Assembly: GCA_030614005.1 (NCBI GenBank)
Contig: JAUWKS010000039.1
Span: forward strand, 1-30,262
Source: Candidatus Heimdallarchaeota archaeon
Lineage (GTDB): Archaea > Asgardarchaeota > Heimdallarchaeia > JABLTI01
Length of the DNA stretch: 30,262 nt
Direction of reading: 5' to 3'
Shown: positions 8,801-24,824 of the stretch, one piece after another
Layout: the number at the start of each line of letters is the position of its first letter
How positions within the stretch are numbered: the stretch's first letter is position 1
Notes under the pieces: model-generated
The model's input: only the letters and a program-made list of their open reading frames with translations
Databases searched by the model: none
Told to the model about the DNA's origin: nothing
Program-made: the position numbers and the translations under genes

Positions 8801-9874
8801 ATGATACGAGATGCGCAACAATATGGTCCATTAAATGTTCATATGCGATGCCAGAGAACAGAATTATTTTCCGCTGGAACTTACAATTTACTCGCTAGTG
8901 CTACCGATTATGCTAATCTTATACAAATGCTTTCAAACACAAAATACAATGATATCATTGGTACTGAAATGGACAAGAAATACCCTAACCTCATTGTGGT
9001 TGATCGTCGACTTTCACAACATTTTGTAGATCAATACTCTACCGTTCGGAAATATATCCCTAAACGAGCAAAGGCATTTATTGATTTGTTAAGTAGAAAC
9101 TATTTCCTTAATAACGTCAAAGTTATCTTAGCTGCACTACATGGTGCTAGTAATTATGAGGAAGCACAAGAGATGTTACTCAATTTGACTCCGGCAGAAA
9201 ATGAAGAAACTGAATATCTCTATAAAGCTCAAAATGTTGAGGAAATGATTTCACGACTTACTGATGAAAAACTTCGAGAATCTCTTGAAAATGCTTTAGG
9301 TGAATATCGTTTTCTTGACTTGGTTTATCCTTTGATTATAGCAGTTGATCAATACTTCTACGAACATCTCTCTAAAGTGATATCCAAATTGAAAGGTGAA
9401 GACCGAACCAAGGTTAAGATATTAGTTGGTTCACGGATAGGCATCCAAAACATAGGAATTATTCTTCGGTCAAAGATTTTCGATATTGTTCCAGGAATGA
9501 TACGAAAATGGCTTATAGCGACTAAAATGTGCCCATTAAAAGAAGCTTTCCGTGAAAAATTAATTAATGCTCCTAATATGGAAACTGCTTTCAATCTCTT
9601 GAAAGATGAGTCTCCATTTGCTGAATTAGGAATAAGACTACTTGAGAACCTCGATAAAGACAAACCTCCATTAGACAATTTTGATTTGTTCGCTGATCAA
9701 ATATTAATACATAAGGCAAATTCCCTCTTCCGCGGTGTAAGTTTTAATATTTCTATTTTTCCAGCATTCTTCTTCTTGAAGGAAATGGAAATTCGTAATT
9801 TACGAGTAATAATCTTAGGAAAACTTCATAAAAGATCTACAAATGAAATACTCGAAAAAATAGTTTTAGTTTAA
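8801..9874 (+). CDS. atpC: A/V-type ATP synthase subunit C (Vo d homologue)
   Basis: 357 aa; YPLIIAVDQYFY, IQNIGIILRSK and C-terminal KEMEIRNLRVIILGK typical of AhaC/NtpC; next to subunit K. Confidence 0.85.
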   Translation: MIRDAQQYGPLNVHMRCQRTELFSAGTYNLLASATDYANLIQMLSNTKYNDIIGTEMDKKYPNLIVVDRRLSQHFVDQYSTVRKYIPKRAKAFIDLLSRNYFLNNVKVILAALHGASNYEEAQEMLLNLTPAENEETEYLYKAQNVEEMISRLTDEKLRESLENALGEYRFLDLVYPLIIAVDQYFYEHLSKVISKLKGEDRTKVKILVGSRIGIQNIGIILRSKIFDIVPGMIRKWLIATKMCPLKEAFREKLINAPNMETAFNLLKDESPFAELGIRLLENLDKDKPPLDNFDLFADQILIHKANSLFRGVSFNISIFPAFFFLKEMEIRNLRVIILGKLHKRSTNEILEKIVLV

Positions 9875-9942
9875 GACTATTAGTAAATGTTAAAAAGCAA
9901 TAAAAAATCAAATAGACTCTAGAAACAAATAAAACTCTTACT

Positions 9943-10344
9943 TTGGAGGTAATACCAATTCGTCAATCATTATCTAAAAAAATCTTCATCATGATGCAAG
10001 TATTAGTTATTGCTATTGGACTCTTAACAATAGTAAAATTTTCTTTAGCTTTAACAGGTGAATCAGGTGTAGCCATTGTTAGTAAAGGAGTGCCTGGTTT
10101 TGACCCAATTTCAGTTCTCGCAGCAGAGGATCAAGCTGGTTTAATTGCTATTGCTGCTGGTTTAGCAATGGGCTTATCTGCAATCGGTGCAGCATTAGGC
10201 TTGGGTACCGCCGCTTCAGCAGCTGCAGCTGCAATTACTGAAAGACCAGAATCTTTTGGTAAACTGTTAGTACTTCTCGCTCTAATTGAAGCTATTGCTA
10301 TTTATGGTTTCGTTATTGCATTTGTATTATCTGGTAGCATTTAA
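9943..10344 (+). CDS. atpK: A/V-type ATP synthase subunit K (c-ring proteolipid); start codon uncertain
   Basis: One hairpin, IAAGLAMGLSAIGAALGLG...ERPESFGKLLVLLALIEAIAIYG, with the carrier Glu, plus an N-terminal hydrophobic segment. Confidence 0.93.
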   Translation: MEVIPIRQSLSKKIFIMMQVLVIAIGLLTIVKFSLALTGESGVAIVSKGVPGFDPISVLAAEDQAGLIAIAAGLAMGLSAIGAALGLGTAASAAAAAITERPESFGKLLVLLALIEAIAIYGFVIAFVLSGSI

Positions 10345-10401
10345 AGATTGCATCTTAAGAAACAGAACTTGGACCCAATTCACCATTTTGAGTGACTGAT
10401 A

Positions 10402-10450
10402 GGCGGCTTTTTTGCCGTTCTTGTATATTTTTTATCTTTTTCTTTTATTT
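10402..10450 (+). terminator. Hairpin plus T-rich tract after atpK
   Basis: ggcggc-tttttt-gccgtt (4 WC + 2 GU) followed by long T-rich runs. Confidence 0.4.
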
Positions 10451-10601
10451 CTTTTAGTGTTTACTTACTTAATCCTAGTTACCAACACTTTTTTTAACCG
10501 ATTAATTTAATATTGTTTGAAGATTGATACATAAAAAAGGGTTCATATCAAGTTTTCACGATTAAAATACTAAATAATATACTATTTTGAGTTGAATTCA
10601 A

Positions 10602-11897
10602 ATGACAGACAATGAAGATAAATTTGATTTCGCGGCATGGACAAAAAAACTTCCCCCCTCTGAAATTCGGCAGTTATTAAAATACAAAGTAAAATATAAT
10701 TTTGGTGGCGGATTACCTGGTGCCTTACCAATAGACACTTTGGGTAACATTTTGATAGAAATTGGCGAAGAAAACATTCAAGATAACAAAGATGGTAATA
10801 TAGATAAGGCTCTTTCTTTATGGAATTATGGACCAACTGGAGGTCAGGAATTCGTTTTAAGAATTCTAGCAGAACGAATGAATCGTATTGATGGGCTCAA
10901 TCTCGATGCTGAGACAGGATGGCAAGACATTATTTTAACAGCGGGATCACAACAAGCACTTTACGCAATTCTTGATACAATAGTTGACCCAGGTGATGTT
11001 ATTTTAACACCCAGCCCAGCTTATTTAGGATTTCTTGCACCCGCTTACAAAATTGGAGGGGAAATTGTTACTATTCCTACTGATTCGGATGGTTTAATAC
11101 CTGAATATTTAGAACAGGCAATTCCAATGTGTGAAAAGAAATTCGGAAAGAAGCCATCAATGATTTATGTTGTTCCTGATTCTGATAATCCAAAAGGAAC
11201 TACTATTCCATTCAAAAGACGAAAACAAATCTTCGACATTGCCGAACAGTATGATATTCTATTAGTAGAAGATCAAGCATACAAAGAAATACAATTTAAA
11301 GGTGAACCAATTAAACCCATTAAATCTCTTGATAAAGATAATTGTAGAGTCGCATATTTGCGAACAACTTCTAAAGAAGCAGCTGTTTTACGTATGGGTT
11401 ATTCTGTTCTGCCTGAAAGTTTAAAGAATGAAGTGTTGAAGGCTAAAGGTTACTTGGATCTTTGTTCACCTACAATCTTGCAAAAAGTTATGGCAATCTA
11501 TTATGAAAAATACATTGACAAAGTATTGCCTGATTGCTTGGCAACTTATAAGAAACGCTCAGAAGCAATGCTAAAAGGTATAGAAGAATCCTTCCCAGCT
11601 GGTGACTATACTAAACCAAATGGTGGATTTTTTGTTTGGTTTGAATCTGAAAAACATTTCGATGCTAAGAAATTCTTACTCGAAAAAGCCATTCCAAATG
11701 ATATTTGTTTTGTCCCTGGAGCAGCATTCTATCCTATTAAAGGTTGGACTTTGGATACAGAAAAGAATGATTTAGTGGACTCTGTTGCAAAAACCAATAC
11801 GATGCGTTTAGGTTATTCCTACAATAACGCCGAAGTTATCTATGACGGTATCAAGAAATTGGGTAATATGCTATATAGAGATCTAGGCGTAGAATGA
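10602..11897 (+). CDS. Class I/II PLP-dependent aminotransferase (MocR/LysN/aromatic aminotransferase-like)
   Basis: FGGGLP, NYGPTGG, LTAGSQQAL, DNPKG, VEDQAY (PLP Asp), TTSKEAAVLRMGY (PLP Lys), PNGGFFVW, MRLGYS. Confidence 0.9.
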   Translation: MTDNEDKFDFAAWTKKLPPSEIRQLLKYKVKYNFGGGLPGALPIDTLGNILIEIGEENIQDNKDGNIDKALSLWNYGPTGGQEFVLRILAERMNRIDGLNLDAETGWQDIILTAGSQQALYAILDTIVDPGDVILTPSPAYLGFLAPAYKIGGEIVTIPTDSDGLIPEYLEQAIPMCEKKFGKKPSMIYVVPDSDNPKGTTIPFKRRKQIFDIAEQYDILLVEDQAYKEIQFKGEPIKPIKSLDKDNCRVAYLRTTSKEAAVLRMGYSVLPESLKNEVLKAKGYLDLCSPTILQKVMAIYYEKYIDKVLPDCLATYKKRSEAMLKGIEESFPAGDYTKPNGGFFVWFESEKHFDAKKFLLEKAIPNDICFVPGAAFYPIKGWTLDTEKNDLVDSVAKTNTMRLGYSYNNAEVIYDGIKKLGNMLYRDLGVE

Positions 11898-11906
11898 GAA
11901 ACACAT

Positions 11907-11950
11907 GGAAATTACTACTCAATAGCCTGAGTAATTTCCTTCTACTTTTA
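11907..11950 (+). terminator. Hairpin plus pyrimidine tract after the aminotransferase gene
   Basis: ggaaatt-act-actca-atagcc-tgagt-aatttcc, then ttctactttta. Confidence 0.5.
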
Positions 11951-12075
11951 TTTTCTATCATTTTTCCTTTCGTTACAATATTCAATAGCTAAGAAACAAT
12001 TATATGAAGTAAACACAAAAGTTTTTATCTACAAGTTCTTGAATTTCAAGAGACTTCGAACAGGTGTTTATTGAG

Positions 12076-14178
12076 ATGAGTTTATTACCTGACAGACTAA
12101 AAACGGTTAAAGTTGCTGTTCCAATAGAGTATTCGCGTAACTTGTACAGGTTTCTATCCTTAGAAGAAAATCTAGACATCATAGATATTCAGAAGAAACC
12201 TTTTGAAATAAATTCTTTTGAACATGGTTCTAAAATCAAAGAACTTTCTGAAACTTTTAGTAAGGTTGTAGAGAATTTTGAGATTGCTGATAAAATCTCT
12301 GCGAAAAAGCATATTTCAATCGATGATCGTGATTTTAGTGCTGTGTTAAAAGAAATAGATAGAATTTCCAAAGATGTTATCGTTAAATTAAGTCAAATTG
12401 CTGATCGAATAAAACTTGCGGAACAAGAACTTGAAAAGAACAAATCTGCCATCGAAATTGCTCAGAATTTAATTCCTTTTGGATTCAGTTTTGAAGATCT
12501 TGATGATGAGCACCCATATTTTGATATTATTGTTGGACATATTCTCTCTAAAAGAATTCCAAGATTCAAATGGAATTTGGATGCAATTACTGATGGAAAC
12601 TATGTATTTAAAGAATCGCCATCTGAAGGAAAGCATTCATTTATCGCCATTGGATTCCTTGAACGATACCAAGAAGATATAAACCGGTTACTTGTAGCAT
12701 ATGGCTTTGAAAAATCATCTGTTCCAGAAAGAATTACTGGAAGCCCTGATAAAGTAGTAAAAAGAAGTTCCGATAAAATTGCTGCTCTTGAGAAGAAAAT
12801 TGCTGAATTGAAGGAAGACTCTGATATACTCATTTCAGAATATGGTGGCGAAATTATCGGCTACTCTGAACAATTGCAGATAGAGATGAATTATCTTAAA
12901 ATTGCTAATAAGGTTCGCGAAACTCAAAAGAAAGTTTCATTCTGGGCTTGGGTTCCTGTCAAAAAGATTTCAAGTGTTGAAAAGGGAATTAAGACAGCAA
13001 CTGAAGACAAAGCACAAGTTGAGTTCACTGAACCCGTATTCGAGGAATCTGAATTTCCAACAAAAACCTCTGTTCCTAAATTTGCTCGGGTTTATGATGG
13101 ATTAGTAAATGCTTATGGAACACCTGGTTATAATGAATATAATTCTGCAATTTTACTCCAAATCTTCTTCCCAATAATGTTTGGAGTTATGTTTGCAGAT
13201 GTAGGTCATGGCTTACTTTTCGCTCTATTAGGTGTTTACGGATTAACACTACAAAAGAAAGAATTAAGAAAAGATAGTTTCATGGATGAAATTAAGGGCT
13301 ATTTCAAAGGTGGAGCAATGCTGATGATTGTTTCAGGAATAGTTGCGATGATTTTTGGAGTATTGTTCGGGTCCTATTTTGGAGTTACACATCATGCAGC
13401 TGAATTTGTACCAAAACCACTCTGGTTTAGTCCAGAAGGTCATGAATTATTTAATGGTGCAAGTCCTGTTATTATAATTTTAGAATTCTCTTTAGTCATT
13501 GGTATGATTCATATGACTATTGGATATATTTTGCGTTTCATCAATAATATAAGACAAAAACAATATTTAGACGCATTCGGTATTCCACTAATGTGGACAA
13601 TATTCCATTGGAGTTTATTCATTTTAATCTTTACTTTTGGTACAAACTTTATGACTTGGTTTGATCCAAGCAATTCAGGCTATTTTGATCTTGCATTATT
13701 TTCAGTAGGAGGAGAACCAATTCAATTCTTCTACATTCCAAATGCTTTGTTGTTCTTCGCTCTAACACTTGGTTTGCCAATTTTAGTGATGACTGTTTCC
13801 TTGATTATTCATGGAAAACGACATGGATCCATTTTAGACGGTGTTGCAGAGCTTATCGAATTATTACTTTCAACATTATCAAACACGGTTAGCTATGCTC
13901 GGATATTTGCAATGAACGCTGTACACGGGGCACTCTCTCATATCTTTACCCTTAAAGACTTTACAGGAGGGGAAAGCATGGGCGTAATTAATTACATTGG
14001 AGTTGCTATTGGTGCTCTAGTAATATTAGCTCTTGAAGGATTGTTTTCATTCATTCAAACCTTGCGTTTACAATGGGTTGAATTCTTTTCAAAAGTAGGT
14101 TACAAAGGAACTGGAACCCCATTCCAATCCATGGCTATTCCACGAAAGTATTCCAAATTTACTAAAGTCAATACATAA
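12076..14178 (+). CDS. atpI: A/V-type ATP synthase subunit I (Vo a homologue)
   Basis: FFPIMFGVMFADVGHG, GMIHMTIG, LSNTVSYARIFA (essential Arg), LEGLFSFIQTLRLQWVEFFSK. ATG 12076 follows an AGGTG SD; the track GTG 12064 lies inside that SD. Confidence 0.95.
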   Translation: MSLLPDRLKTVKVAVPIEYSRNLYRFLSLEENLDIIDIQKKPFEINSFEHGSKIKELSETFSKVVENFEIADKISAKKHISIDDRDFSAVLKEIDRISKDVIVKLSQIADRIKLAEQELEKNKSAIEIAQNLIPFGFSFEDLDDEHPYFDIIVGHILSKRIPRFKWNLDAITDGNYVFKESPSEGKHSFIAIGFLERYQEDINRLLVAYGFEKSSVPERITGSPDKVVKRSSDKIAALEKKIAELKEDSDILISEYGGEIIGYSEQLQIEMNYLKIANKVRETQKKVSFWAWVPVKKISSVEKGIKTATEDKAQVEFTEPVFEESEFPTKTSVPKFARVYDGLVNAYGTPGYNEYNSAILLQIFFPIMFGVMFADVGHGLLFALLGVYGLTLQKKELRKDSFMDEIKGYFKGGAMLMIVSGIVAMIFGVLFGSYFGVTHHAAEFVPKPLWFSPEGHELFNGASPVIIILEFSLVIGMIHMTIGYILRFINNIRQKQYLDAFGIPLMWTIFHWSLFILIFTFGTNFMTWFDPSNSGYFDLALFSVGGEPIQFFYIPNALLFFALTLGLPILVMTVSLIIHGKRHGSILDGVAELIELLLSTLSNTVSYARIFAMNAVHGALSHIFTLKDFTGGESMGVINYIGVAIGALVILALEGLFSFIQTLRLQWVEFFSKVGYKGTGTPFQSMAIPRKYSKFTKVNT

Positions 14179-14326: not shown

Positions 14327-14623
14327 TTAAAAAGTAAATTCAAACTCTTCTTCTTTTGGTTCTGGTTTGATTCTTCTAGATGCGTCAGCGATTATCTCTG
14401 GATGGAAATTTTTGATATGTAAACGCCAATTTTTTACCCAAAGACCACAATAGCAACACATATACTTTTCTTCTTTTGCTTCTTTCTTTGCGATATATTC
14501 TAAATATTTTGGATGTCTCCTTTTCATATGTTCCTCAGGATCCTCTATGATACTTTGGCATATTTTGCAAATTTTGATACCATCTTTTCTTCTCACAATA
14601 AAGTTATTTAAATTTTTGACCAC
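14327..14623 (-). CDS. Small protein with two C2H2-type zinc fingers
   Basis: CKIC-x9-H-x4-HP and CCYC-x9-H-x4-HP; GTG start preceded by GGGGGG, which can pair with the anti-SD through a G.U. Confidence 0.7.
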   Translation of the reverse strand: MVKNLNNFIVRRKDGIKICKICQSIIEDPEEHMKRRHPKYLEYIAKKEAKEEKYMCCYCGLWVKNWRLHIKNFHPEIIADASRRIKPEPKEEEFEFTF

Positions 14624-14852
14624 TCAAGTGCCCCCCGGCATGGGAATAATATAGCTAGCAGCTATTCTTTTCTTTAGTTCAATTGATTATTTATTACTTC
14701 AAGTCATCTTATTTGAACATTTCCCTTTAAAATCCTTTTTCGGACAAAATTTTAATTTAGAAAGTAATTGACAGTCTTATAAATAGAATTTCCATTCAAA
14801 AAACAGTCTCCTTCAAAAAAGGAATCGTATACAATTAGAAAGAGACGCAATC

Positions 14853-14860
14853 TTTTTAAA
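14853..14860 (+). promoter_or_regulatory. Candidate TATA box of the ribosomal protein cluster
   Basis: tttttaaa about 25 nt upstream of the first hairpin of the structured leader (14886). Confidence 0.4.
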
Positions 14861-14885
14861 GAGTATTTTTGTGTTCTAGTTCCAC

Positions 14886-15072
14886 TGCAACGCTGAATTT
14901 CTTTAAGCGTTCGCATAATTGGGCTCCGACCTTGCGTTGATTCGCAGAAGGGGAGTCGCGCCTCTTGGAGGTTCCGAGAATAATCTATTGTTATTCGTTG
15001 GATTAAAGGATAAACTAGAGTGAAATTCCTTCGCGCATAAACCGAAGGAAAAAAAACTGTCTTTCCGACAGG
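14886..15072 (+). ncRNA. Candidate structured 5' leader RNA (ribosomal-protein leader) upstream of rpl22
   Basis: Five stem-loops in a GC-enriched non-coding stretch; G.U pairs favour the + strand; I did not recognise 5S, SRP, RNase P or tRNA signatures. Confidence 0.5.
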
Positions 15073-15108
15073 TTATTTAAAATAAATGCAATTACGAGGA
15101 AAAGCAAA

Positions 15109-15570
15109 ATGCCACAATATGGATACTCGATTTTCGGACTTGACCCGGATCGTACTGCCATTGCTAGTGCACGAGAACTAGACATTAGCCCTAAGGCTGC
15201 TAGAGAGATTTGCAATACCATTAAGGGTATGTTTCTTGACAAGGCAAAGGAATATCTTGAAGATGTCATTGATATGAAAAAAGCTGTCCCTTACAAACGC
15301 CACAAAAAACATGTTGCTCATCGAAAGGAATTAAGCAAATGGCCTTCAGGTCGCTTTCCTGTCAAAGCAGCTAAAAAGATCTTAGAAGTTCTTGAAAATG
15401 CAGAAAATAATGCAGAATTCAAAGGTCTTGATGTTGAACGAATGAAGATCATTCATGCAAGCTCACATAAAGCGATGATTTTGAAACGCTATTTACCAAG
15501 AGCTCATGGTTCATCTTCCCCTAGATTTAATTATTTATCACATATTGAATTAGCCATTGAAGAGGTCTAA
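15109..15570 (+). CDS. rpl22: 50S ribosomal protein uL22
   Basis: ISPKAAREIC, KKAVPYKRH, GRFPVKAA, LENAENNA, PRAHG, SHIEL. Confidence 0.97.
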   Translation: MPQYGYSIFGLDPDRTAIASARELDISPKAAREICNTIKGMFLDKAKEYLEDVIDMKKAVPYKRHKKHVAHRKELSKWPSGRFPVKAAKKILEVLENAENNAEFKGLDVERMKIIHASSHKAMILKRYLPRAHGSSSPRFNYLSHIELAIEEV

Positions 15571-15572
15571 AA

Positions 15573-16670
15573 TTGTCAGCAATTACTCATTTCATTAAAA
15601 AGGGTGTTCGCCAATCACAGATTGACGAATATTTAGGTAGTGAGCTCGGACGTGCCGGATACGGCGGTGTCGAAATAGCAAAAACACCTTTGGGTGAGCG
15701 CATTACCATTCATGCTGCAAGACCAGGTATTGTTATCGGTCGAAGAGGAAAAAACATCAGAATGATTACTGATGAATTAGTTGCCCGATTTGGTCTTGAG
15801 AACCCTCAAATTGAAGTTAAAGAAGTTACAAACCCTGAACTTAATTCTAAAGTTATGGCTTATTCTCTTGTTTCAGCTATTGAACGTGGAGTTCATAGAA
15901 GAAGAGCAGCTTATTCTGTTCTTAGAAGAGTAGTTAATGCTGGAGCAAAAGGATGCGAAATTCTCATTTCTGGTAAACTTACTAGTAAAAGATCACGCCA
16001 TGAAGCTTATAGAATGGGTCTTGTTGCTAAAAGTGGTGAACTTGGTTCTACTTTTGTTATGCACGCAAATGCAACCGCTGTAATGAAATTAGGAACTATT
16101 GGTGTTACTGTTAATATTATGAGAGGAGATGTTCAATTACCGGATGAAATCAGCATTTTAGCTGTAAAATTCGTAGATGGTAAAATCGTAGACGAAACCT
16201 CTCCTGAAGCTGTCGAAGTGTCACCTAAAGACGAAGCTCTAAAGAAGAAAGAAACCAAGGAAGCCGTTTCTCCTAAAAAGAAAGAAGCACCTTCTGCAAA
16301 GAAAGAAGACGCTCCAAAGAAGGTAGAGACGAAAGTAGCTGCCAAGAAGAAAACTGACCTTGATCGTGAAGTTGAAGAGCTTTCTGACTTAATTGAAAAG
16401 TCTCCTGGTGAAGAAGTTAAACCAAAGAAAACTGAGAAGAAACCCAAGGCAAAGACTACAAAGAAAGATGATGCTAAACCCAAGGCAAAGACTACAAAGA
16501 AAGACGGTGTTAAACCCAAGGCAAAGGCTACAAAGAAAGACGGTGCTAAGCCAAAAGCAAAAACTTCCAAGAAAGACGAAGCAAAGGCAAAGGACACAAA
16601 AGCAAAAGCAGCTAAAAAAGATGACAAGGATAAAAAACCCAAGTCAAAAAAGGAAGCCAAGAAAAAATAG
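15573..16670 (+). CDS. rps3: 30S ribosomal protein uS3 with a ~170-aa Lys-rich C-terminal tail
   Basis: RAGYGGVEIAKTPLG, RPGIVIGRRG KH motif, GCEILISGKL; TTG start after a GAGGT SD; core is about 196 aa. Confidence 0.97.
   Translation: MSAITHFIKKGVRQSQIDEYLGSELGRAGYGGVEIAKTPLGERITIHAARPGIVIGRRGKNIRMITDELVARFGLENPQIEVKEVTNPELNSKVMAYSLVSAIERGVHRRRAAYSVLRRVVNAGAKGCEILISGKLTSKRSRHEAYRMGLVAKSGELGSTFVMHANATAVMKLGTIGVTVNIMRGDVQLPDEISILAVKFVDGKIVDETSPEAVEVSPKDEALKKKETKEAVSPKKKEAPSAKKEDAPKKVETKVAAKKKTDLDREVEELSDLIEKSPGEEVKPKKTEKKPKAKTTKKDDAKPKAKTTKKDGVKPKAKATKKDGAKPKAKTSKKDEAKAKDTKAKAAKKDDKDKKPKSKKEAKKK
16440..16583 (+). repeat. Four 36-nt tandem coding repeats (KPKAKTTKKDDA-like) in the uS3 tail
   Basis: Units start at 16440, 16476, 16512 and 16548; the first is aaacccaaggcaaagactacaaagaaagatgatgct. 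Confidence 0.9.
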
Positions 16671-16684
16671 GAGATGAATGAAAA

Positions 16685-16903
16685 ATGGCAATTCTAAAAA
16701 TGCGTGAAATTCGTTATATGACCGCTGCACAAAGAAAAAACCAGCTAAAAAATCTCCACAAAGAGCTTGCTCTCTTGCGAGCAAGTAAAGCGACTGGTGG
16801 CTCATTAGAGAAACCAAGTAAAGTTAAAGAAGTTAAGAAAACAATCGCAAGGACCTTGACTGTTATGAAAGAGAATGGTGAGCTTGAGCCCACTAACAGC
16901 TAA
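16685..16903 (+). CDS. rpl29: 50S ribosomal protein uL29
   Basis: LKMREIR...LHKELALLR...KPSKVKEVKKTIARTLT; follows rps3. Confidence 0.95.
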   Translation: MAILKMREIRYMTAAQRKNQLKNLHKELALLRASKATGGSLEKPSKVKEVKKTIARTLTVMKENGELEPTNS

Positions 16904-17195
16904 AAATATCCACAGACACGAGTTGATTGGTTTGAATGTTGAAATAATAAAATCTACTGATAAGAATCTAATCGGAATGCAAGGTTGTATTGTCGATGAA
17001 ACAAAGCAAATGCTGGTTATAGATCTTATTAATTCAAAATCAAACACAACAGCATCTCGTCGACTCTCTATTGAAAAGAAAAACAATTCATTTCGATTCC
17101 AATTACCAAATAAAGAACTCGTGGATGTAGATGGAAGTTTACTAAACTCTCGAAGCGAAAATAGAATAAAAAATGTAATCCGTAAAAGGTGGTAA
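16875..17195 (+). CDS. rnp1: RNase P protein component 1 (Rpp29/Pop4)
   Basis: NIHRHELIGLNVEI, GCIVDETKQML, VDGSLLNSRSENRIK; canonical position between rpl29 and rps17; overlaps rpl29 by 29 nt. Confidence 0.93.
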   Translation: MVSLSPLTAKNIHRHELIGLNVEIIKSTDKNLIGMQGCIVDETKQMLVIDLINSKSNTTASRRLSIEKKNNSFRFQLPNKELVDVDGSLLNSRSENRIKNVIRKRW

Positions 17196-17199
17196 AAAA

Positions 17200-17544
17200 A
17201 TGTCCAGATATATTGGCGTTGATGTTCCAGAACCAGAAAATGTTTGTAATGATATAAACTGTCCTTTCCATGGCACTCTTCGTGTCAGAGGTAGGATCAT
17301 AAATGGAACTGTTACAAGTCATAAAATGCAAAAAGCATGTGTTGTTCGTAGAGACTTTCTCTTTTATATAAAGAAATTCAAACGATACGAACGCAGACAT
17401 GGTACTTACAGTTCTCATAATCCCCCATGTATCGATGCTCGAGAAGGAGACAAAGTAACCATAATGGAGTGTCGTCCTCTTAGCAAAACAGTTTCCTATG
17501 TTGTTATTGCAAAGGAAAAACCCGTGGAGGGCATAGAATCTTAG
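17200..17544 (+). CDS. rps17: 30S ribosomal protein uS17
   Basis: CNDINCPFHGTL, KRYERR, HNPPCI, ECRPLSKT. Confidence 0.97.
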   Translation: MSRYIGVDVPEPENVCNDINCPFHGTLRVRGRIINGTVTSHKMQKACVVRRDFLFYIKKFKRYERRHGTYSSHNPPCIDAREGDKVTIMECRPLSKTVSYVVIAKEKPVEGIES

Positions 17545-17567
17545 AAAACCGAGGAGAATAAAAGAAG

Positions 17568-17984
17568 ATGTCGAGAAGAAAAGTAACAGGTATATCTCTC
17601 CCAAAACTTAGCAAAGGTGTTACAGTAGGCACACGTTTAGTTTGTGCAGATAACACAGGCGCAAAAGTTATTCAGATTATTGCTGTGAAAGGATTCAAAG
17701 GTCGTCTTAATCGGTATCCTTCAGCATCTGTAGGAGACATGGTTATTGTCACAGTAAAGAAAGGTACCCCTCAAATGAGGCGACAAGTTCTCCCGGCAAT
17801 AGTTATTCGCCAGAGAAAATTGTACCGAAGACCAAACGGACTCTGGGTTCAGTTTGAGGATAATGCTGCAGTAATTGCCAGTCCTGAAGGTAGCCCAAGA
17901 GGAAGCGAAATTCGTGGGCCAGTAGCAAAAGAAGCTGCTGAGCGATGGCCAAGAGTTGCCCACGCTGCTAGTACTATTGTATAA
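17568..17984 (+). CDS. rpl14: 50S ribosomal protein uL14
   Basis: [39 protein letters not shown]. Confidence 0.98.
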
Positions 17985-18018
17985 AATAATACTATGGTAA
18001 ACTAAGGAGAAGAAAAAA

Positions 18019-18441
18019 ATGAAGAAAAACGCAAAACTAACTAAACAACCTTCCAAGCAAAGAAAAATGCTCTATCAAGCACCTTTGCATAAAAGAAGGA
18101 AGATGTTAACTGCTCCTCTCTCTCCAACACTTGCAGAAAAAGAAGGCGTGAAAAGCTTGGTTATCAGAAAGGGTGATACTGTACGAATTAGAAGAGGATC
18201 CTTCAGAGGTATTGAAGGTGAAGTGTCTAAAGTTGGCCTCAAAAATATGATGGTCACAATAGAAGGCGTCACATTCGAGAAATCTGATGGCTCAGCTCAA
18301 CATTTCCCAGTTCGTGCTTGTAATTGCGAAATCATAAATCTGAAAAATATGAAAGATAAACGCCGCAAAGCAATTGTTGATCGAAGACTTGTCACTTTAG
18401 ATGAAGGTGTAGCAAGTGAAAAAGAAGAGGAAACGAAATAA
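18019..18441 (+). CDS. rpl24: 50S ribosomal protein uL24
   Basis: QPSKQRKMLYQAPLH, IRKGDTVRIRRG KOW motif. Confidence 0.96.
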   Translation: MKKNAKLTKQPSKQRKMLYQAPLHKRRKMLTAPLSPTLAEKEGVKSLVIRKGDTVRIRRGSFRGIEGEVSKVGLKNMMVTIEGVTFEKSDGSAQHFPVRACNCEIINLKNMKDKRRKAIVDRRLVTLDEGVASEKEEETK

Positions 18442-18458
18442 AAGGAAAGTGAAAAAAA

Positions 18459-19214
18459 ATGACTAAATCAGGTGGCTCAAAGCATCAAAAGAGAATTGCA
18501 TCCCCACGTAACTGGACAATCCGCAGAAAGGCACACAAATTCGCTTTCCGTGCAGATCCAGGACCTCATAGTCGTAATTCATGTATACCATTAGGTATTC
18601 TGTTGCGAGATGTTCTTAACCTTGCAGAAACTGCTCGAGAATTAAAGATCATCGTAAATAAACGACTAGTAACAATTGATGGGAATGTAGTTACAAATCT
18701 AAAACATCCTGTCGGTCTTATGGATGTAGTTCAAATTGATGAATTAAACAAAGCATATCGTATTCTACCACATGAGTTACACGTAATGATGCCTTATGAA
18801 ATGAAGAAAACGGCTACAATTACTAAACTCTGTAAAATTTTGAATAAAACCACAATCAAAGGTGGCATTACTCAATTAAATCTCCATGATGGGAGAAATA
18901 TTCTCTTACCAAAGGAAGCAGGCATTGAACAAAAATATAATACAAAAGACTCAATCGAAGTAAAACTTCCTTCTCAAGAGATAGCTACTCACTTCCCATT
19001 CAAAGAGGGAATGTATGCGATTATTACAGCTGGTAAAAACGTCGGCAAACATGGATCACTCAAAGAAGTTCAATGGCGTTTTGGTCCCAGAGCTTCAACT
19101 GTGACTCTAGTATCCCCAGAAGATGGTACAGAGGTTCAAACCACACCCGAATATATCTTCATCATAGGTGAAAAATCACCTTGGTTTCAAGCAAAAGGAG
19201 TCGATAGCAAATGA
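18459..19214 (+). CDS. rps4e: 30S ribosomal protein eS4
   Basis: HQKRIASP, PGPH, PLGILLRD, PVGLMDV, QLNLHDGRNI, ITAGKNVG. Confidence 0.97.
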   Translation: MTKSGGSKHQKRIASPRNWTIRRKAHKFAFRADPGPHSRNSCIPLGILLRDVLNLAETARELKIIVNKRLVTIDGNVVTNLKHPVGLMDVVQIDELNKAYRILPHELHVMMPYEMKKTATITKLCKILNKTTIKGGITQLNLHDGRNILLPKEAGIEQKYNTKDSIEVKLPSQEIATHFPFKEGMYAIITAGKNVGKHGSLKEVQWRFGPRASTVTLVSPEDGTEVQTTPEYIFIIGEKSPWFQAKGVDSK

Positions 19215-19759
19215 CACTAACTAAAGAAGATTATTTGAAGGATTGGCAAGAAAATAAAATGCGCAAACCTAAAGTTGCTTCCTTAATCCTTCACTGCTGT
19301 GTAGGAGAATCTGGTGAAGCACTAGAAAGGGTAAAGAAAATTTTCGAATCCATTGCTGGAATGAAAACAGCCGAAACTCGTGCTAAACGTTCTTTCAGAG
19401 AATTCGGAATTCGCGAAGGTGAACCAATTGGTGCAATAGTTACAATACGTGACGAAGCAAGCATCAAGAAACTTGTTGAGCGACTTTTCTACCCTCGAGA
19501 CAACAAAATTTCCCCAAGAAACTTTGATCGAGAAGGCAATTTTGGCTTTGGAATTAAAGAACACATTGACATCCCAGGTACTAGGTATGACCCTAACCTT
19601 GGAGTAACTGGCTTGGATGTATTTCTAAAAATAGAACGTCCAGGTTTTCGGGTGAAACGAAGATTCCGCGCACCAACCAAGATTCCTATGAGACATAGGA
19701 TTTCTCGTGATGAAGCGATTGTTTTCGCTGAAACAGAATTAGGATTATCTGTAGAGTAG
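19211..19759 (+). CDS. rpl5: 50S ribosomal protein uL5
   Basis: [42 protein letters not shown]; ATGA-type overlap with rps4e. Confidence 0.97.
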
Positions 19760-19770
19760 GTGAAAAGCGA

Positions 19771-19953
19771 ATGGCAAAAGGATCAGGTTCAAAACCAAAA
19801 GTAGTCAAATTTGGCAAAGGCTCTCGAAAATGTACACGATGTGGAGCCCATGAAGGTTTGATTCGAAGGCATGGACTTAACCTATGCAGACGATGCTTCC
19901 GTGAGGTTGCAAAAACTGTTGGGTTCAAAAGATATGGAGGACACGGAGGATAA
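19771..19953 (+). CDS. rps14: 30S ribosomal protein uS14 (zinc-binding)
   Basis: RKCTRCG...LCRRCFRE. Confidence 0.96.
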
Positions 19954-19986
19954 TTCCTCTGTTAGATAAAGTAGGTGAATAATACT

Positions 19987-20379
19987 ATGCCATTATTAGA
20001 TACATTAGCAAACGCAATGAATAATATCTGGAATGCTGAAAAGCTAGGAAAACGTGAAGTTTACCTCAAACCTGCTTCAAAACTTATCTCTTCCGTAGTT
20101 AAAGTGATGATGGCTAAAGGTTACATCGGTGAGTTTGAATTCATTGATGATGACCGAGCAGGAATCTTCAAAGTACAATTACTTGGAAGAATAAACAAAT
20201 GTCAGGTTATTAAACCACGATTTCCTGTGAAGCACAAAGAATTCGAATCCTGGGAAGAAAAATTCCTTCCTGCAAGGGATATGGGAATTCTAATTGTCTC
20301 TACACCAAAGGGTGTGATGAGTCACGAAGATGCAAAAGCATTGGGTATAGGAGGAAGACTCCTAGCCTATATATACTGA
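19987..20379 (+). CDS. rps8: 30S ribosomal protein uS8
   Basis: [44 protein letters not shown] 19987 follows an AGGTGA SD (track start 19975). Confidence 0.97.
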
Positions 20380-20398
20380 TTAAGGATGCGATAATGAA

Positions 20399-20956
20399 AT
20401 GCCTAAAGCTGTCTTTGTAGAAAAAGCTGTAGAAGCACCGGAAGGAGTTACGCTAGAGCTTAAGGGCATGAAGGTAACTGTCACAGGTCCAAAAGGAATG
20501 TTAGACCGAAACTTTAACGGTGAACCTGTAGATATGTCCTTAGCAAAGAGCAAATTGACTTTGTCTGTAGCCTTTCCACGCAAAAGAGAATTAGCAATGT
20601 TGGGAACAATTCAAGCACATGTGAAAAACATGATCGTTGGTGTTACTCAAGGGTACACCTACAAGCTAACAATTGTCTATTCTCACTTTCCTATCACAGT
20701 AGATGTGAAACCAGAAGAAGTTGTTATCAAGAATCTTTACGGTCAAAGAAACCCAAGAAGAGCAAAAATCCTTGGTGACACGAAGGTTAAAGTTGACGGT
20801 GATGAGCTAATCATCACTGGAATAAATAAGGAGCATGTTGGCCAAACATCAGCTAACATCCAAGAAATCTGTAAACTAAGAGGAAAATTACACAAAGATC
20901 CTCGACGATTTATGGATGGTATTTGGTTGTCAGCACAATATGTTGGCATTGACTAG
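20399..20956 (+). CDS. rpl6: 50S ribosomal protein uL6
   Basis: VTGPKG, GVTQGY, YSHFPI, KEHVGQTSANI, KDPRRFMDGIW. Confidence 0.97.
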   Translation: MPKAVFVEKAVEAPEGVTLELKGMKVTVTGPKGMLDRNFNGEPVDMSLAKSKLTLSVAFPRKRELAMLGTIQAHVKNMIVGVTQGYTYKLTIVYSHFPITVDVKPEEVVIKNLYGQRNPRRAKILGDTKVKVDGDELIITGINKEHVGQTSANIQEICKLRGKLHKDPRRFMDGIWLSAQYVGID

Positions 20957-20968
20957 GAGTGAACCATC

Positions 20969-21796
20969 ATGACTGTTGATAAACGATTACTCCGTGAAAG
21001 AGCCAAAATAAGAAAGAAACGTCCTAAATTTAGACGACAAGAAAGTTGGCGATACAAACGATTACGAACCGGTTGGAGACGACCAGTAGGTATCGACAAT
21101 ACTATGAGACATCATAAACGAGGTTGGCCAAAAATAGTTAGGATCGGATTTAGAGGTCCTAAAGCCGTTAGAGGATTAACATCAACCGGAAAAGTTGAAG
21201 TTCTTGTTCATAATGTCAAGGAAATTGAACAAATTGACGTTGACGTTCAAGTAGCTCGTATTGCTTCCGCTGTTGGAATCAAAAAGAAAGTTGATATGAC
21301 CAACAGAGCTGATGAACTAAATATAAAGATCATCAATAGACCCGAAGAAGCATTAACATTTGCTACAATATCCGAAATCTCAGAAGAACTATTACTAGAA
21401 GACGACGAAGTTGATAAGAAGAAACCTTCTCGACCTCGTAAGAAGAAAACATCTTCAAGTGGATTAACTGCTAAAGAAATGGTTGAATTAGATCAGATTG
21501 AATCACAATTAGCAGGTAAAGCTAAGAAACCAACCACTAAAACCAAAGCTAAACCAGCTGCCAAGAAGACCACTACTAAGAAGCCTGCTACAAAACCAAA
21601 AACCACTACTAAGAAACCTACAACAAAGAAACCAACCGCAAAGAAAACCACCACTACCAAGAAAGCACCTGCAAAACCAAAAGCATCTACTACCACTAAG
21701 AAGAAGACCACTTCACCAGCGAAGAAGAAAGCAACCACTTCTAGTAAGAAGGCTGACGACACAAAGAAAAAAGCTGCCTCTAGCAAGAAAAATTAG
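20969..21796 (+). CDS. rpl32e: 50S ribosomal protein eL32 with a ~150-aa extension (acidic linker, then Lys/Thr/Ala/Pro-rich tail)
   Basis: KFRRQES, WRRPVGIDN, GFRGPKAVRGL, VLVHNVKE; core is about 125 aa. Confidence 0.96.
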   Translation: MTVDKRLLRERAKIRKKRPKFRRQESWRYKRLRTGWRRPVGIDNTMRHHKRGWPKIVRIGFRGPKAVRGLTSTGKVEVLVHNVKEIEQIDVDVQVARIASAVGIKKKVDMTNRADELNIKIINRPEEALTFATISEISEELLLEDDEVDKKKPSRPRKKKTSSSGLTAKEMVELDQIESQLAGKAKKPTTKTKAKPAAKKTTTKKPATKPKTTTKKPTTKKPTAKKTTTTKKAPAKPKASTTTKKKTTSPAKKKATTSSKKADDTKKKAASSKKN

Positions 21797-21814
21797 GAAT
21801 GAGGTGTAAAAAAC

Positions 21815-22348
21815 ATGACTGATTTGAAAACCCAAAGAAATATCGCTGCAGATATCCTCGGTATAGGAGTAAACAGAGTCTATATTGACCCTGATGCTGC
21901 AGATGAGGTTCAAATGGCACTAACTCGAAGAGATATTCGAGCTCTAATCCACAGCGGTGCTATTCAAGCCAGAAAAATTCAGGGTATTAGCAGAGGTAGA
22001 GCAAGAGCACTCCACATCAAACGTATCAGAGGTCAAAGACGAGGACACGGTAGTCGTAAAGGACGGAAAACCGCTCGTTCAGACACAAGACGAGATTGGA
22101 TTTATCGTATACGAAAGCAACGTACTTATCTAAAGGCTCTCAGAGATAAAAATTACCTCGATAAAGCAACTTATCGTATTTTATATCGACGAGCTAAAGG
22201 TGGTATGTTTCGTTCTGCTAATTACTTGAGAATGTACATTCAAGATAACAGAATGTCTAAAAGAAAATTACCTGAAGTAGATTCAGTAATGCGTGAACTC
22301 CGTTTAGCAAAATCGGAGTATCATAAGAATGAACAAAGGAGTACGTGA
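21815..22348 (+). CDS. rpl19e: 50S ribosomal protein eL19 with a ~30-aa C-terminal extension
   Basis: QRNIAADIL, RGHGSRKG, WIYRIRKQR, YRRAKGGMF. Confidence 0.97.
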   Translation: MTDLKTQRNIAADILGIGVNRVYIDPDAADEVQMALTRRDIRALIHSGAIQARKIQGISRGRARALHIKRIRGQRRGHGSRKGRKTARSDTRRDWIYRIRKQRTYLKALRDKNYLDKATYRILYRRAKGGMFRSANYLRMYIQDNRMSKRKLPEVDSVMRELRLAKSEYHKNEQRST

Positions 22349-23238
22349 AGAAAATGGCGAAAAGTGCAAGTTACCACGTTCCTTTCAGAAGAAGAAGAGA
22401 AGGTAAAACTAACTTTCGGAGAAGAAAACGTCTTCTCAGATCAGATAAACCAAGAATGATTGTAAGACGATCAAACAAACATGTCCGAGTTAGCATCGTT
22501 GGTGCTAAAGTTATCGGTGATGAGACTTTGGTCGATGCAACTTCTCAACATCTAAAAGAATATGGTTGGAAAGGAGCAACGGGCAATCTCCCTTCAGCAT
22601 ATTTAACCGGCTATTTAGCTGGAAAATATGCCCTAGCAGTTGGTGTGAAAGAAGCGATTCTTGATATCGGTATAAATTCAATTAGAAAAGCAACAAGAGT
22701 CTCAGCTATGTTAGCTGGTGCTATTGCAGCAGGTATTGACATCCCACATAATCCATCTGTCTTCCCAGAAGAAGATAGATATACAGGAAAACATATTGCT
22801 GATTTTGCTGCTAAATTGAAGAAAGATGGTGCAAAGAAATACGACCAACAATTTTCCGATTATAAGAAACGTTCAGCAAAACCAGAAAGCTTACCTACTT
22901 ATTTCAAAGCTACTATTAAAGCGATTGATGCAGAATTTGCTTCTGGATCAATGAAAGCTAAACTAAAGAATCGTACTAAAAAGAATAAACTCCCCACATC
23001 TCCAAAGAAAAAGCCTGCGAAAAAAGCAGCTGCAAAGAAACCAGTTACTAAACCAAAGACTACTACTACAGCAAAGAAACCTACTGCTAAACCAAAGACT
23101 ACTACAACAAAGAAACCAACCACAACAAAGAAAGCTACAAGTACGACCAAGAAAGCGAGCACAACAGCTAAGAAAAGCTCTTCTTCAGCAGGAAAAACAA
23201 CTGCTAAGAAAGGAACCACAACAAAATCTAAGAAGTGA
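22345..23238 (+). CDS. rpl18: 50S ribosomal protein uL18 with a ~100-aa Lys/Thr/Ala/Pro-rich tail (start GTG 22345 or ATG 22354)
   Basis: PFRRRREGKTN, NLPSAYLTGYLAG, AILDIG, RYTGKHI; core is about 198 aa. Confidence 0.96.
   Translation: MKKMAKSASYHVPFRRRREGKTNFRRRKRLLRSDKPRMIVRRSNKHVRVSIVGAKVIGDETLVDATSQHLKEYGWKGATGNLPSAYLTGYLAGKYALAVGVKEAILDIGINSIRKATRVSAMLAGAIAAGIDIPHNPSVFPEEDRYTGKHIADFAAKLKKDGAKKYDQQFSDYKKRSAKPESLPTYFKATIKAIDAEFASGSMKAKLKNRTKKNKLPTSPKKKPAKKAAAKKPVTKPKTTTTAKKPTAKPKTTTTKKPTTTKKATSTTKKASTTAKKSSSSAGKTTAKKGTTTKSKK
23032..23109 (+). repeat. Two 39-nt tandem coding repeats (AKKPxxKPKTTTT) in the uL18 tail
   Basis: Units at 23032 and 23071, followed by a degenerate partial third unit. 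Confidence 0.8.
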
Positions 23239-23244
23239 TAGAAA

Positions 23245-23865
23245 ATGTCAACATTAAATGAATGGAAACCAAAAACCAAACTTGGTAAATTGGTCAAAAA
23301 CGGAGAAATTGTTTCCATCCATGAAATCTTTCAACAATCTTTGAAGATTAGTGAAGAAGAAATCATTGATACTTTAGTCTCAAATCTTGAGGATGAAGTG
23401 ATAAACATAAATCTCGTTCAAAGACAAACCGATGCTGGTGAAAAATCAAGATTCAAAGCTTGTGTAGCTGTAGGAAACAAAAATGGTTTAGTTGGTATTG
23501 GTGAAGCCAAAACAAAGGAAATTGGTCCCGCAATTAGGAAAGCAATTATTGCTGCAAAACTAAACCTTGCTCCAGTTAGAAGAGGTTGTGGCTCTTGGGA
23601 ATGTTCCTGTAACGATCCACATAGTATTCCTTTCAAAGTAAGAGGCAAAACCGGTAATTGCGTTGTAGTTGCAAAGCCAGCTCCAAAAGGTTTAGGTCTT
23701 GCTTCTGGAAACGTAGGCAAGATAGTATTCGAGCTTGCTGGAATAACTGATATCTGGACCAAAACTAAAGGTGAAACAAGAACCACTGCTAATTATGCGA
23801 AAGCAACCTTTGATTGCTTAAAACGCACCTATAAAGTGATCACCCCAAGAGATTGGGGTAGATAA
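23245..23865 (+). CDS. rps5: 30S ribosomal protein uS5
   Basis: WKPKTKLGKLV, VQRQTDAGEKSRF, VRRGCGSWEC...HSIPF, PAPKGLGL. Confidence 0.98.
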   Translation: MSTLNEWKPKTKLGKLVKNGEIVSIHEIFQQSLKISEEEIIDTLVSNLEDEVININLVQRQTDAGEKSRFKACVAVGNKNGLVGIGEAKTKEIGPAIRKAIIAAKLNLAPVRRGCGSWECSCNDPHSIPFKVRGKTGNCVVVAKPAPKGLGLASGNVGKIVFELAGITDIWTKTKGETRTTANYAKATFDCLKRTYKVITPRDWGR

Positions 23866-23888
23866 TACATTAAGGACGTGTAAAAGAA

Positions 23889-24368
23889 ATGTCAAAATCA
23901 AAACAAGGGTTAATTGCTGTCATCAGAATAAGAGGACAAGTTGATCAACCTAAAGGTGTTAAACATGGCTTAAATCTACTAAGTCTAAATAGAGTAATGA
24001 ATGCAGTAGTCGTCCCTAATGACCCCACTCACGTAGGGATGATGCAACAGCTAAAAGATGCGGTCACTTGGGGCGAAATCGATAAGAAAACTTTAACGGC
24101 ACTAATTAAGAAGCGAGGAAGAATTGTTGGCAATAAGAAAATTGACATCAAATACCTCAAAGAACAAAAGTTCGATACAATGGCTGCTTTTGTCACAGCA
24201 ATTTATGACTGCAAAGCAGATATGCGACGAATAGATGGATTAAAACCACTCTTTCGATTACATCCACCAAGAAAGGGCTTTAAATCAGTTAAAAACCCAA
24301 TAACTCGTGGTGGCGATTTAGGCTACAGAGGAGACAAAATAAACGCTCTCCTTATGAGGATGTTGTAA
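23889..24368 (+). CDS. rpl30: 50S ribosomal protein uL30 (long archaeal form)
   Basis: IAVIRIRG, VTWGEID, FRLHPPRKGF, GDLGYRGDKINALL. Confidence 0.96.
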   Translation: MSKSKQGLIAVIRIRGQVDQPKGVKHGLNLLSLNRVMNAVVVPNDPTHVGMMQQLKDAVTWGEIDKKTLTALIKKRGRIVGNKKIDIKYLKEQKFDTMAAFVTAIYDCKADMRRIDGLKPLFRLHPPRKGFKSVKNPITRGGDLGYRGDKINALLMRML

Positions 24369-24386
24369 TTTCGTGAGGGAAAAATA

Positions 24387-24824
24387 ATGGTACAAAGATT
24401 TAGACGAAAAATCAGAAAACAACGTGGTAGTATGCACCATGGTTGGGGTATCCAAAAAGGACACAAAAAAGCCGGCAGTAGAGGCGGCGTTGGTAAATCA
24501 GGCGGAACAACCCATCAATGGATGCAATCTATAGTAACCGGTAAAGTCTATGGTAAACAAGGTTTCGTTAGACCACCAAGAGCTTCTCCTCACACTAAAG
24601 CAATGAATATCGGTGACATAACTGATAAAATAGATGCACTAATCGCAAAAGGCATTGCAACGAAAAAAGGAACAGAAATCATTGTTGATACCACTTTATT
24701 GGATGTAACAAAGGTTCTTAGTAAAGGACCAGCCAAGAAAATGACTATAATTGCTCAATCCTTCTCGGCTAACGCTAAAGCTAAAATCGAAAAAGCTGGC
24801 GGAAAAGCGAAAATCGCTTCATAA
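24387..24824 (+). CDS. rpl15: 50S ribosomal protein uL15
   Basis: RKQRGSMHHGWG, GSRGGVG, YGKQGF, FSANAKAKIEKAGG. Confidence 0.96.
   Translation: MVQRFRRKIRKQRGSMHHGWGIQKGHKKAGSRGGVGKSGGTTHQWMQSIVTGKVYGKQGFVRPPRASPHTKAMNIGDITDKIDALIAKGIATKKGTEIIVDTTLLDVTKVLSKGPAKKMTIIAQSFSANAKAKIEKAGGKAKIAS

What the first reader, a model, noticed from the sequence alone, without database searches (positions are those of the whole stretch)
14886..15108. Candidate new ribosomal-protein leader RNA ahead of rpl22
Seen: after a TATA-like box, five stems occupy a GC-enriched non-coding stretch: P1 tgc-aacgct/agcgtt-c-gca (14886-14915); P2, a three-part stem ggctcc/ggagtc, cctt/aagg, gcg/cgc with GA and AG bulges (14922-14957); P3 gcctc/gaggt (14960-14972); P4 ttccttcg/cgaaggaa (15026-15050); P5 ctgtc/gacag (15057-15071). 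G.U pairs favour the sense strand. Known: r-leaders mimic rRNA sites for autogenous control. I know of none described for an archaeal operon beginning at uL22, though that is from memory. Inference: the newly created operon start acquired its own cis-regulatory RNA, or this is a separate small RNA.
Basis: partly seen in the sequence, partly recalled or inferred. Interest (0 to 1): 0.65.

Follow-up and report, generated by a model that had tools for sequence, protein, structure and literature searches.

The report
rRNA-mimicking leader, probably binding uL6
The stretch in front of an 18-gene ribosomal-protein operon of an Asgard (Heimdall) archaeon is a real, family-wide folded RNA whose fixed part copies the piece of ribosomal RNA where protein uL6 sits, so it is probably an uncatalogued feedback sensor for uL6, a protein not listed as the ligand of any prokaryotic leader.

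Summary
The element is real. All 25 family loci with intact upstream DNA carry it, right after a conserved BRE/TATA box and directly before rpl22; whole genomes hold one copy. Its helices covary (9 of 40 pairs change on both sides, 97.6% of cells pair). It has no Rfam match and is not the genome's 5S, SRP or RNase P RNA. No U-tract separates it from rpl22, so it is most likely a ~225-nt 5' leader. New here: the invariant P1 tip, GCUGAA-N6-UAAGC, has the frame of 23S rRNA helix 97, the site of the uL6 N-terminal domain, and rpl6 lies in the operon. The loop differs invariably only at the two bases that pair with helix 42 in the ribosome. P2 weakly resembles the base of helix 42. The invariant pattern is expected 0.002-0.008 times in rRNA by chance, but blind whole-leader tests are weak (p 0.05-0.8). 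No binding or RNA data exist. Verdict: new r-leader family (about 0.8), ligand uL6 (about 0.55).

The parts
14837..14861 (+). Promoter: BRE (14837-14846) and TATA box (14853-14861)
   Evidence: TATA invariant in alignment A1; 36-39 nt before the P1 core in 25 of 25 loci
14884..14884 (+). Predicted transcription start (A of ACUGC), 31 nt after the first T of the TATA box
   Evidence: inference from archaeal promoter spacing (own knowledge); conservation begins at this base; not mapped
14886..14915 (+). P1 hairpin; core 14892-14908 has the frame of the tip of 23S rRNA helix 97
   Evidence: core frame invariant in 25 of 25 loci; same predicted architecture as own H97; 2 compensatory pairs
14922..14957 (+). 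P2, three-part stem with two 2-nt bulges; basal helix (14922-14929 with 14952-14957) resembles the base of 23S helix 42 with the strands in swapped order
   Evidence: 99.6% of cells paired; rRNA comparison; resemblance statistically weak
14960..14972 (+). P3 hairpin
   Evidence: 5 pairs, 100% paired, nearly invariant; different but pairing sequence in L010
14973..15002 (+).
   Evidence: 5 of 10 pairs with two-sided changes; coordinates
15018..15050 (+).
15057..15071 (+). P5 hairpin around a conserved motif; register differs in relatives
15096..15101 (+). Shine-Dalgarno GAGGAA, the same six bases in all family loci
   Evidence: anti-SD of genus 16S
15109..24824 (+). 18-gene operon uL22-uS3-uL29-Rpp29-uS17-uL14-uL24-eS4-uL5-uS14-uS8-uL6-eL32-eL19-uL18-uS5-uL30-uL15, gaps at most 34 nt
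   Evidence: Pfam; gaps; order kept in the genus
20399..20956 (+). rpl6 (uL6), the proposed ligand, 12th gene of the operon
   Evidence: PF00347
24838..24881 (+). Hairpin plus U-run ending the operon (shows what a terminator looks like here; the leader has none)
   Evidence: sequence

Best explanation
The element is the 5' leader of the rpl22-rpl15 mRNA and an autogenous control site for uL6. Shown: a conserved four-helix RNA starts at the promoter and runs without a terminator into rpl22; its invariant hairpin P1 has the sequence frame of 23S helix 97. From literature: the uL6 N-terminal domain binds H97 and locks it against H42. Inferred: surplus free uL6 binds P1, perhaps packed on P2 as H97 packs on H42, and lowers expression of the operon; new 23S rRNA draws uL6 away and lifts the block. 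The output step is the weakest part. My best guess is blocked initiation at rpl22, through a uL6-stabilised long-range contact of the P1 loop or a compaction that hides the Shine-Dalgarno, with polar loss of downstream genes. Control of termination or decay is the alternative.
For: Position: 25 of 25 loci precede rpl22; 8 of 8 metagenome pattern hits lie there; the full model finds one strong copy in 10 of 12 family genomes, each at rpl22, and recovers 4 held-out divergent leaders. Structure. No U-run over 4 nt after P3 in 24 leaders. Mimicry: the invariant pattern, chosen before H97 was looked at, hits own 23S H97 with the same 6-nt spacer; expected 0.002 for that spacer, 0.008 for spacers 5-8; H97 is the top gapped match in 4 of 4 genomes and the top profile hit by 9.5 bits. 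U2754 is kept in 25 of 25 and C2755 stays a pyrimidine; the only invariant differences are at G2751 and C2752, which pair with H42 in the ribosome (PMC2330231). uL6 binds H97 (PMC4199504) and fixes H97-H42 (PMC9638911). The longest exact leader-rRNA match (11 nt) falls on H42 in 2 of 4 genomes. Precedent: yeast Rpl9/uL6 represses RPL9B through a 3' stem-loop (PMC8047918).
Against: Blind tests are weak: profile p about 0.05 (156 of 3000); whole-leader gapped matches as good arise in 6-77% of shuffles; a covariance model of P1 alone does not find H97. The tandem GA/UA tip is a common RNA module (H11 and H18 have it too). The H42 likeness has p 0.32 in this genome and 0.013-0.022 in two relatives before correction for five helices. 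The invariant UU in the loop needs a reason of its own and none is shown. P1 lies about 190 nt from the Shine-Dalgarno, which is mostly unpaired in single-sequence folds. No transcript, start site or binding data. All loci are one family and not independent.
Confidence: 0.55

Rival explanations
1. It is an r-leader, but the ligand is another operon protein (uL24 through an H18-like stem, uL18 through a 5S helix II-like P3, or uS8, uL22, uS3), or several proteins bind different helices.
For: Own 23S H18 has the same two arms around H19/H20. P3 shares four pairs and flanks with helix II of the own permuted 5S. P2, P3 and P3b are conserved and H97 does not explain them.
Against: H18 arms differ in three of five genus rRNAs while those genomes' leaders keep the H97 sequence; H19/H20 are absent from the leader. 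The best rRNA match of P3 is at chance level. H11 does not match in this genus. P2 has two separate 2-nt bulges, not the tandem GA/AG pairs of a kink-turn.
Confidence: 0.22
2. It is a separate small RNA (about 120 nt, P1-P3b) with its own promoter, for example an rRNA-like decoy or assembly aid, and the operon uses a second promoter near 15003-15010.
For: A UUAAA stretch follows P3b in about 90% of genus leaders and could be a TATA box; conservation drops after P3b.
Against: No U-tract to end such an RNA; no BRE-like purine run before that stretch, and it is broken in L037 and L077; the element never occurs away from rpl22.
Confidence: 0.1
3. It is a cis-regulatory or stabilising 5' UTR that binds no ribosomal protein (mRNA protection, a sensor of another factor or metabolite); the H97 likeness is convergence on a common GA/UA module.
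For: Weak blind statistics; a hairpin at the very 5' end suits protection from nucleases (own knowledge); other Asgard families have unrelated structured leaders at the same place.
Against: Eleven arm bases, the spacer length and U2754 are invariant across 77-100% uL22 identity, more than a stabilising hairpin needs, and they coincide with the rRNA site of a protein of the same operon.
Confidence: 0.13

Closest known systems
rRNA-mimicking r-leaders: uL1 site of the L11/L1 operons (bacteria and archaea), uS8 site of the E. coli spc operon
   Same: Structured mRNA element of an r-protein operon that resembles the rRNA site of a protein encoded further down the operon (PMC10931766); narrow lineage range is typical (PMC7247131).
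   Different: Different sequence, structure and proposed ligand; the spc-type genes are controlled by uS8 inside the operon in E. coli, here by an element at the 5' end; binding site far from the start codon.
Archaeal r-leader candidates of Eckert and Weinberg 2020 (eL15-Euryarchaeota, L4-Archaeoglobi, S15-Halobacteria, S15-Methanomicrobia) and the L7Ae leader
   Same: Archaeal, promoter-proximal, covarying, found by comparison.
   Different: No Rfam 15 match; none lies before rpl22; L6 is not among the ligands in their Table 1 or Table S1; those motifs are 57-94 nt, this one about 120 nt of core in a 225-nt leader.
23S rRNA helix 97 tip (E. coli 2744-2760) and helix 42 base (1030-1036 with 1119-1126; numbering from memory)
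   Same: Same arms, spacer length, U2754 and predicted hairpin shape; six-pair helix with the U.G wobble.
   Different: G2751 and C2752 replaced by UU; smaller lower internal loop; H42 strands in swapped order and without the 1033 bulge.
Yeast RPL9B autoregulation by Rpl9 (uL6)
   Same: uL6 family protein acting on a stem-loop in its own mRNA (PMC8047918; PMC4838235).
   Different: 3' UTR, choice of termination pathway, single gene. The primary paper was not held, so I could not check whether its stem-loop resembles H97.

Membership tests
Ribosomal-protein leader (r-leader) | Consistently directly upstream of, and on the strand of, r-protein genes | tested here: met
   25 of 25 loci, one copy per genome
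Ribosomal-protein leader (r-leader) | Conserved secondary structure with covariation | tested here: met
   9 of 40 pairs two-sided, 97.6% paired, 0 of 500 shuffles; slid controls 37-44%; R-scape not available
Ribosomal-protein leader (r-leader) | Part of the same transcript as the regulated genes | tested here: inconclusive
Ribosomal-protein leader (r-leader) | Resembles the rRNA site of a protein of the operon | tested here: inconclusive
   H97 frame: expected 0.002-0.008, top hit in 4 of 4, but blind tests p 0.05-0.8
Ribosomal-protein leader (r-leader) | Binds the protein and represses expression | not testable with these tools
   needs binding and reporter assays
Any Rfam 15 family | Score at or above the gathering threshold | tested here: not met
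   0 hits in the window; only chance hits at E up to 10; 0 in 8 homologous loci
5S rRNA, SRP RNA, RNase P RNA, tRNA | Matches the family and is the genome's copy | tested here: not met
   RNase P at C82, SRP at C30, permuted 5S at C124, no tRNA in the window
L7Ae kink-turn leader | 3-nt bulge followed by tandem G.A/A.G pairs | tested here: not met
   by inspection of the consensus structure: P2 has two separate 2-nt bulges
uL24/uL4 site (H18-H19-H20 junction) mimic | H18 arms plus H19 and H20, tracking the lineage's rRNA | tested here: not met
   H18 varies in the genus while the leader does not; H19/H20 absent
uS8 site (16S helix 21) mimic | Conserved internal-loop core of helix 21 | tested here: inconclusive
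   no 16S match longer than 8 nt; no structure-aware test made

The most novel reading that the evidence does not exclude
A Heimdallarchaeian mRNA leader rebuilds the two-helix uL6 site of the ribosome (H97 tip docked on H42) from permuted pieces and lets uL6 control an 18-gene operon: the first uL6 leader in prokaryotes, the first described r-leader in Asgard archaea, and a parallel to Rpl9 autoregulation in yeast.
Probability: 0.35. Interest if true: 0.8.

Novelty: new variant of a known kind. Interest (0 to 1): 0.66.

Why it matters
Few archaeal r-leaders are known, and my searches found none for Asgard archaea or for uL6 (open-access library only). How the largest archaeal r-protein operon is balanced against rRNA supply is open; this gives a 30-nt hairpin and one named protein to test. 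In the lineage closest to eukaryotes it would also show that uL6 feedback exists on both sides of that divide, whether by descent or convergence. Other Asgard families show different conserved leaders at the same position, so a set of uncatalogued control RNAs may be there.

Tried and rejected
Rfam, tRNA, 5S, SRP and RNase P identities: rejected. 5S was missed by RF00001 in all 12 family genomes because it is permuted. H11 (eL15/uL15) and H18 (uL24) as the model for P1: rejected. An early idea that family f3 leaders mimic the sarcin-ricin loop, and that f2/f3 share a motif with this leader: dropped; those motifs lie at promoter distance and are probably second TATA boxes (inference). H97-like hairpins before rpl6-containing operons of other Asgard families: none found in about 60 loci; models find nothing convincing outside the family. 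Pairing of the P1 loop with the Shine-Dalgarno or with the AGAA of P2: complementary in most loci, broken at one position in 4 of 25, no compensatory change, so unresolved. A P1-only covariance model did not recover H97. In one search the 3' strand of P3b was entered 2 nt off, which affects that row only. The SERF paper on the L6 site and the RPL9B paper were not held.

Full report
Setting. The window is contig C89 of a 3.6-Mb genome. Its closest relatives are labelled Candidatus Heimdallarchaeota; one bears the accession prefix JABLTI01, which from memory marks the Gerdarchaeales. The element lies between a divergent 98-codon zinc-finger-like ORF and rpl22, first of 18 tightly packed genes that end at rpl15 with a hairpin and U-run. 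rpl3 and rps19 are on other contigs. This break is not new: rpl22 heads the run in several Heimdallarchaeia families and in many other Asgard families (compare PMC10833476).

The observation. The five stems exist as described. I collected 25 family loci with intact upstream DNA, from genomes, a metagenome pattern scan and protein look-ups; uL22 identity spans 77-100%, and some loci are near-duplicates. Every one has a TATA box followed 36-39 nt later by GCUGAA-N6-UAAGC, then 186-228 nt to the start codon. Conservation begins about 31 nt after the TATA box, where a start site is expected. On 20 aligned leaders, 97.6% of cells pair, 9 of 40 pairs change on both sides, and no shuffle or slid register comes close. 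P4 is private to this genome; P5 is a hairpin on a conserved motif whose register varies. The more distant members (L010, L070, L071, L075) keep P1 and mostly the base of P2, and a model built without them finds them.

What it is not. No Rfam family matches. RNase P and SRP RNAs lie elsewhere. 5S was not found by Rfam in any family genome, so I checked whether this was it; the genome's permuted 5S is on C124. The element is single-copy and tied to rpl22 in 10 of 12 family genomes; the two without it lack the start of rpl22 in their assemblies. It was not found in the other Asgard genomes searched. No U-run longer than four follows P3 in any of 24 leaders, so a 5' leader is more likely than a free RNA.

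The rRNA likeness. I searched the genome for the invariant P1 frame with spacers of 5-8 nt. Of eight hits, one was the leader, one was helix 97 of the genome's own 23S rRNA with the same 6-nt spacer, one was a stray 33-nt copy of that helix, and five were unrelated. The expected number in 23S plus 16S is 0.002 for one spacer and 0.008 for four. P1 and H97 fold to the same shape: three pairs, internal loop, five or six pairs, 11-nt cap. In the spacer, the base equal to U2754 is U in 25 of 25 and that equal to C2755 is C or U; the bases equal to G2751 and C2752 are always UU. Those two bases pair with helix 42 in the ribosome (PMC2330231), so they serve rRNA packing and a protein-site mimic may not need them. 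The N-terminal domain of uL6 binds H97 (PMC4199504) and locks H97 against H42 (PMC9638911), and rpl6 is in this operon in every genus genome whose contig reaches that far. The base of P2 resembles the base of H42 with strands swapped, including a U.G wobble; this is the longest exact leader-rRNA match (11 nt) in two of four genomes.

How strong this is. The a-priori pattern test is good, but blind tests are not: a profile of the P1 core ranks H97 first yet shuffled rRNA scores as high in 5% of trials; equal gapped matches arise in 6-77% of shuffled leaders; a P1 covariance model misses H97; the H42 likeness has p 0.32 here and 0.013-0.022 in two relatives, uncorrected. One test does separate candidates: H18, the uL24 site, shares the arms in this genome but differs in three of five genus rRNAs whose leaders keep the H97 sequence; H11 does not match. 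So H97 is the best model, and uL6 the best ligand, at moderate odds.

Mechanism. Shown: a conserved folded element between promoter and first gene, with an H97-like invariant tip. Inferred: free uL6 binds it when rRNA is limiting and lowers operon output. Not shown: the output step. The Shine-Dalgarno is the same six bases in all loci, whereas that hexamer makes up 22% of GAGG-type sites in the genome and the sites of most other operon genes vary more. The P1 loop is complementary to it and also to the AGAA of P2, but both pairings break at one position in 4 of 25 loci with no compensation. A uL6-stabilised contact of this loop, like the one uL6 locks in the ribosome, is my leading guess; control through termination or decay is the alternative, as for yeast RPL9B, where Rpl9/uL6 binds a stem-loop and shifts termination (PMC8047918).

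Novelty. L6 is absent from the tables of known and new r-leader ligands in PMC7247131 and is not a repressor in a 2024 review (PMC10931766). No paper in the library joined Heimdallarchaeia, leader and non-coding RNA. The kind of system is known; this family and this ligand appear not to be.

Verdict. Real structured RNA, about 0.97; 5' leader of the operon, about 0.85-0.9; r-protein feedback site, about 0.75-0.8; uL6 through H97 mimicry, about 0.55. Interest 0.66.

Noticed in passing
L067, 23S rRNA positions about 2836-2896 (G000:C95): The genome's 23S gene has an insertion of about 60 nt inside the sarcin-ricin loop; G005 (L114) has a similar one, G007 and G009 do not. A second insertion of about 65 nt lies near 2585-2650. 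Probably archaeal rRNA introns.
   Followed up: partly
G000:C95:20655-20687 (-): A 33-nt copy of 23S helix 97 (94% identical), inverted, 5 kb upstream of the 23S gene; could be an integration-site duplication.
   Followed up: no
G000:C112:14809-14952 and C71:50617-51482: Extra copies of the 3' end of the 23S gene on other contigs, 81-89% identical.
   Followed up: no
G000:C124:855-982 (-): Circularly permuted 5S rRNA gene, missed by RF00001 in all 12 family genomes.
   Followed up: partly
L144, L159, L160, L161, about 230 nt before rpl22 (family f11): A different conserved, G+C-rich leader candidate before rpl22; no Rfam match in the two loci scanned.
   Followed up: partly
L157, L158 before rpl22 (family f17); L171, L172 before rps17 (f2); L137, L139 before rps17 (f19): Further lineage-specific conserved non-coding stretches at r-protein operon starts; no Rfam match for L158 and L171.
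   Followed up: partly
L099 (G032), about 250 nt before rpl22: Long leader in another family with the same GGCUCC/GGAGUC helix as P2 but no P1 frame; not found by the full model.
   Followed up: partly
window 15573-16670, 20969-21796, 22345-23238: uS3, eL32 and uL18 carry long C-terminal extensions beyond their Pfam domains.
   Followed up: no
window 14327-14623 (-): Divergent 98-aa ORF with two Cys/His zinc-finger-like motifs and no Pfam match; an ORF of similar size lies there in several relatives.
   Followed up: no
window 8801-14178: A/V-ATPase subunits C, K and I with an aminotransferase gene between K and I.
   Followed up: no
L151 / L041, before rpl22: Borrarchaeum carries a tandem repeat of about 30 nt in three to four copies before rpl22.
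   Followed up: no
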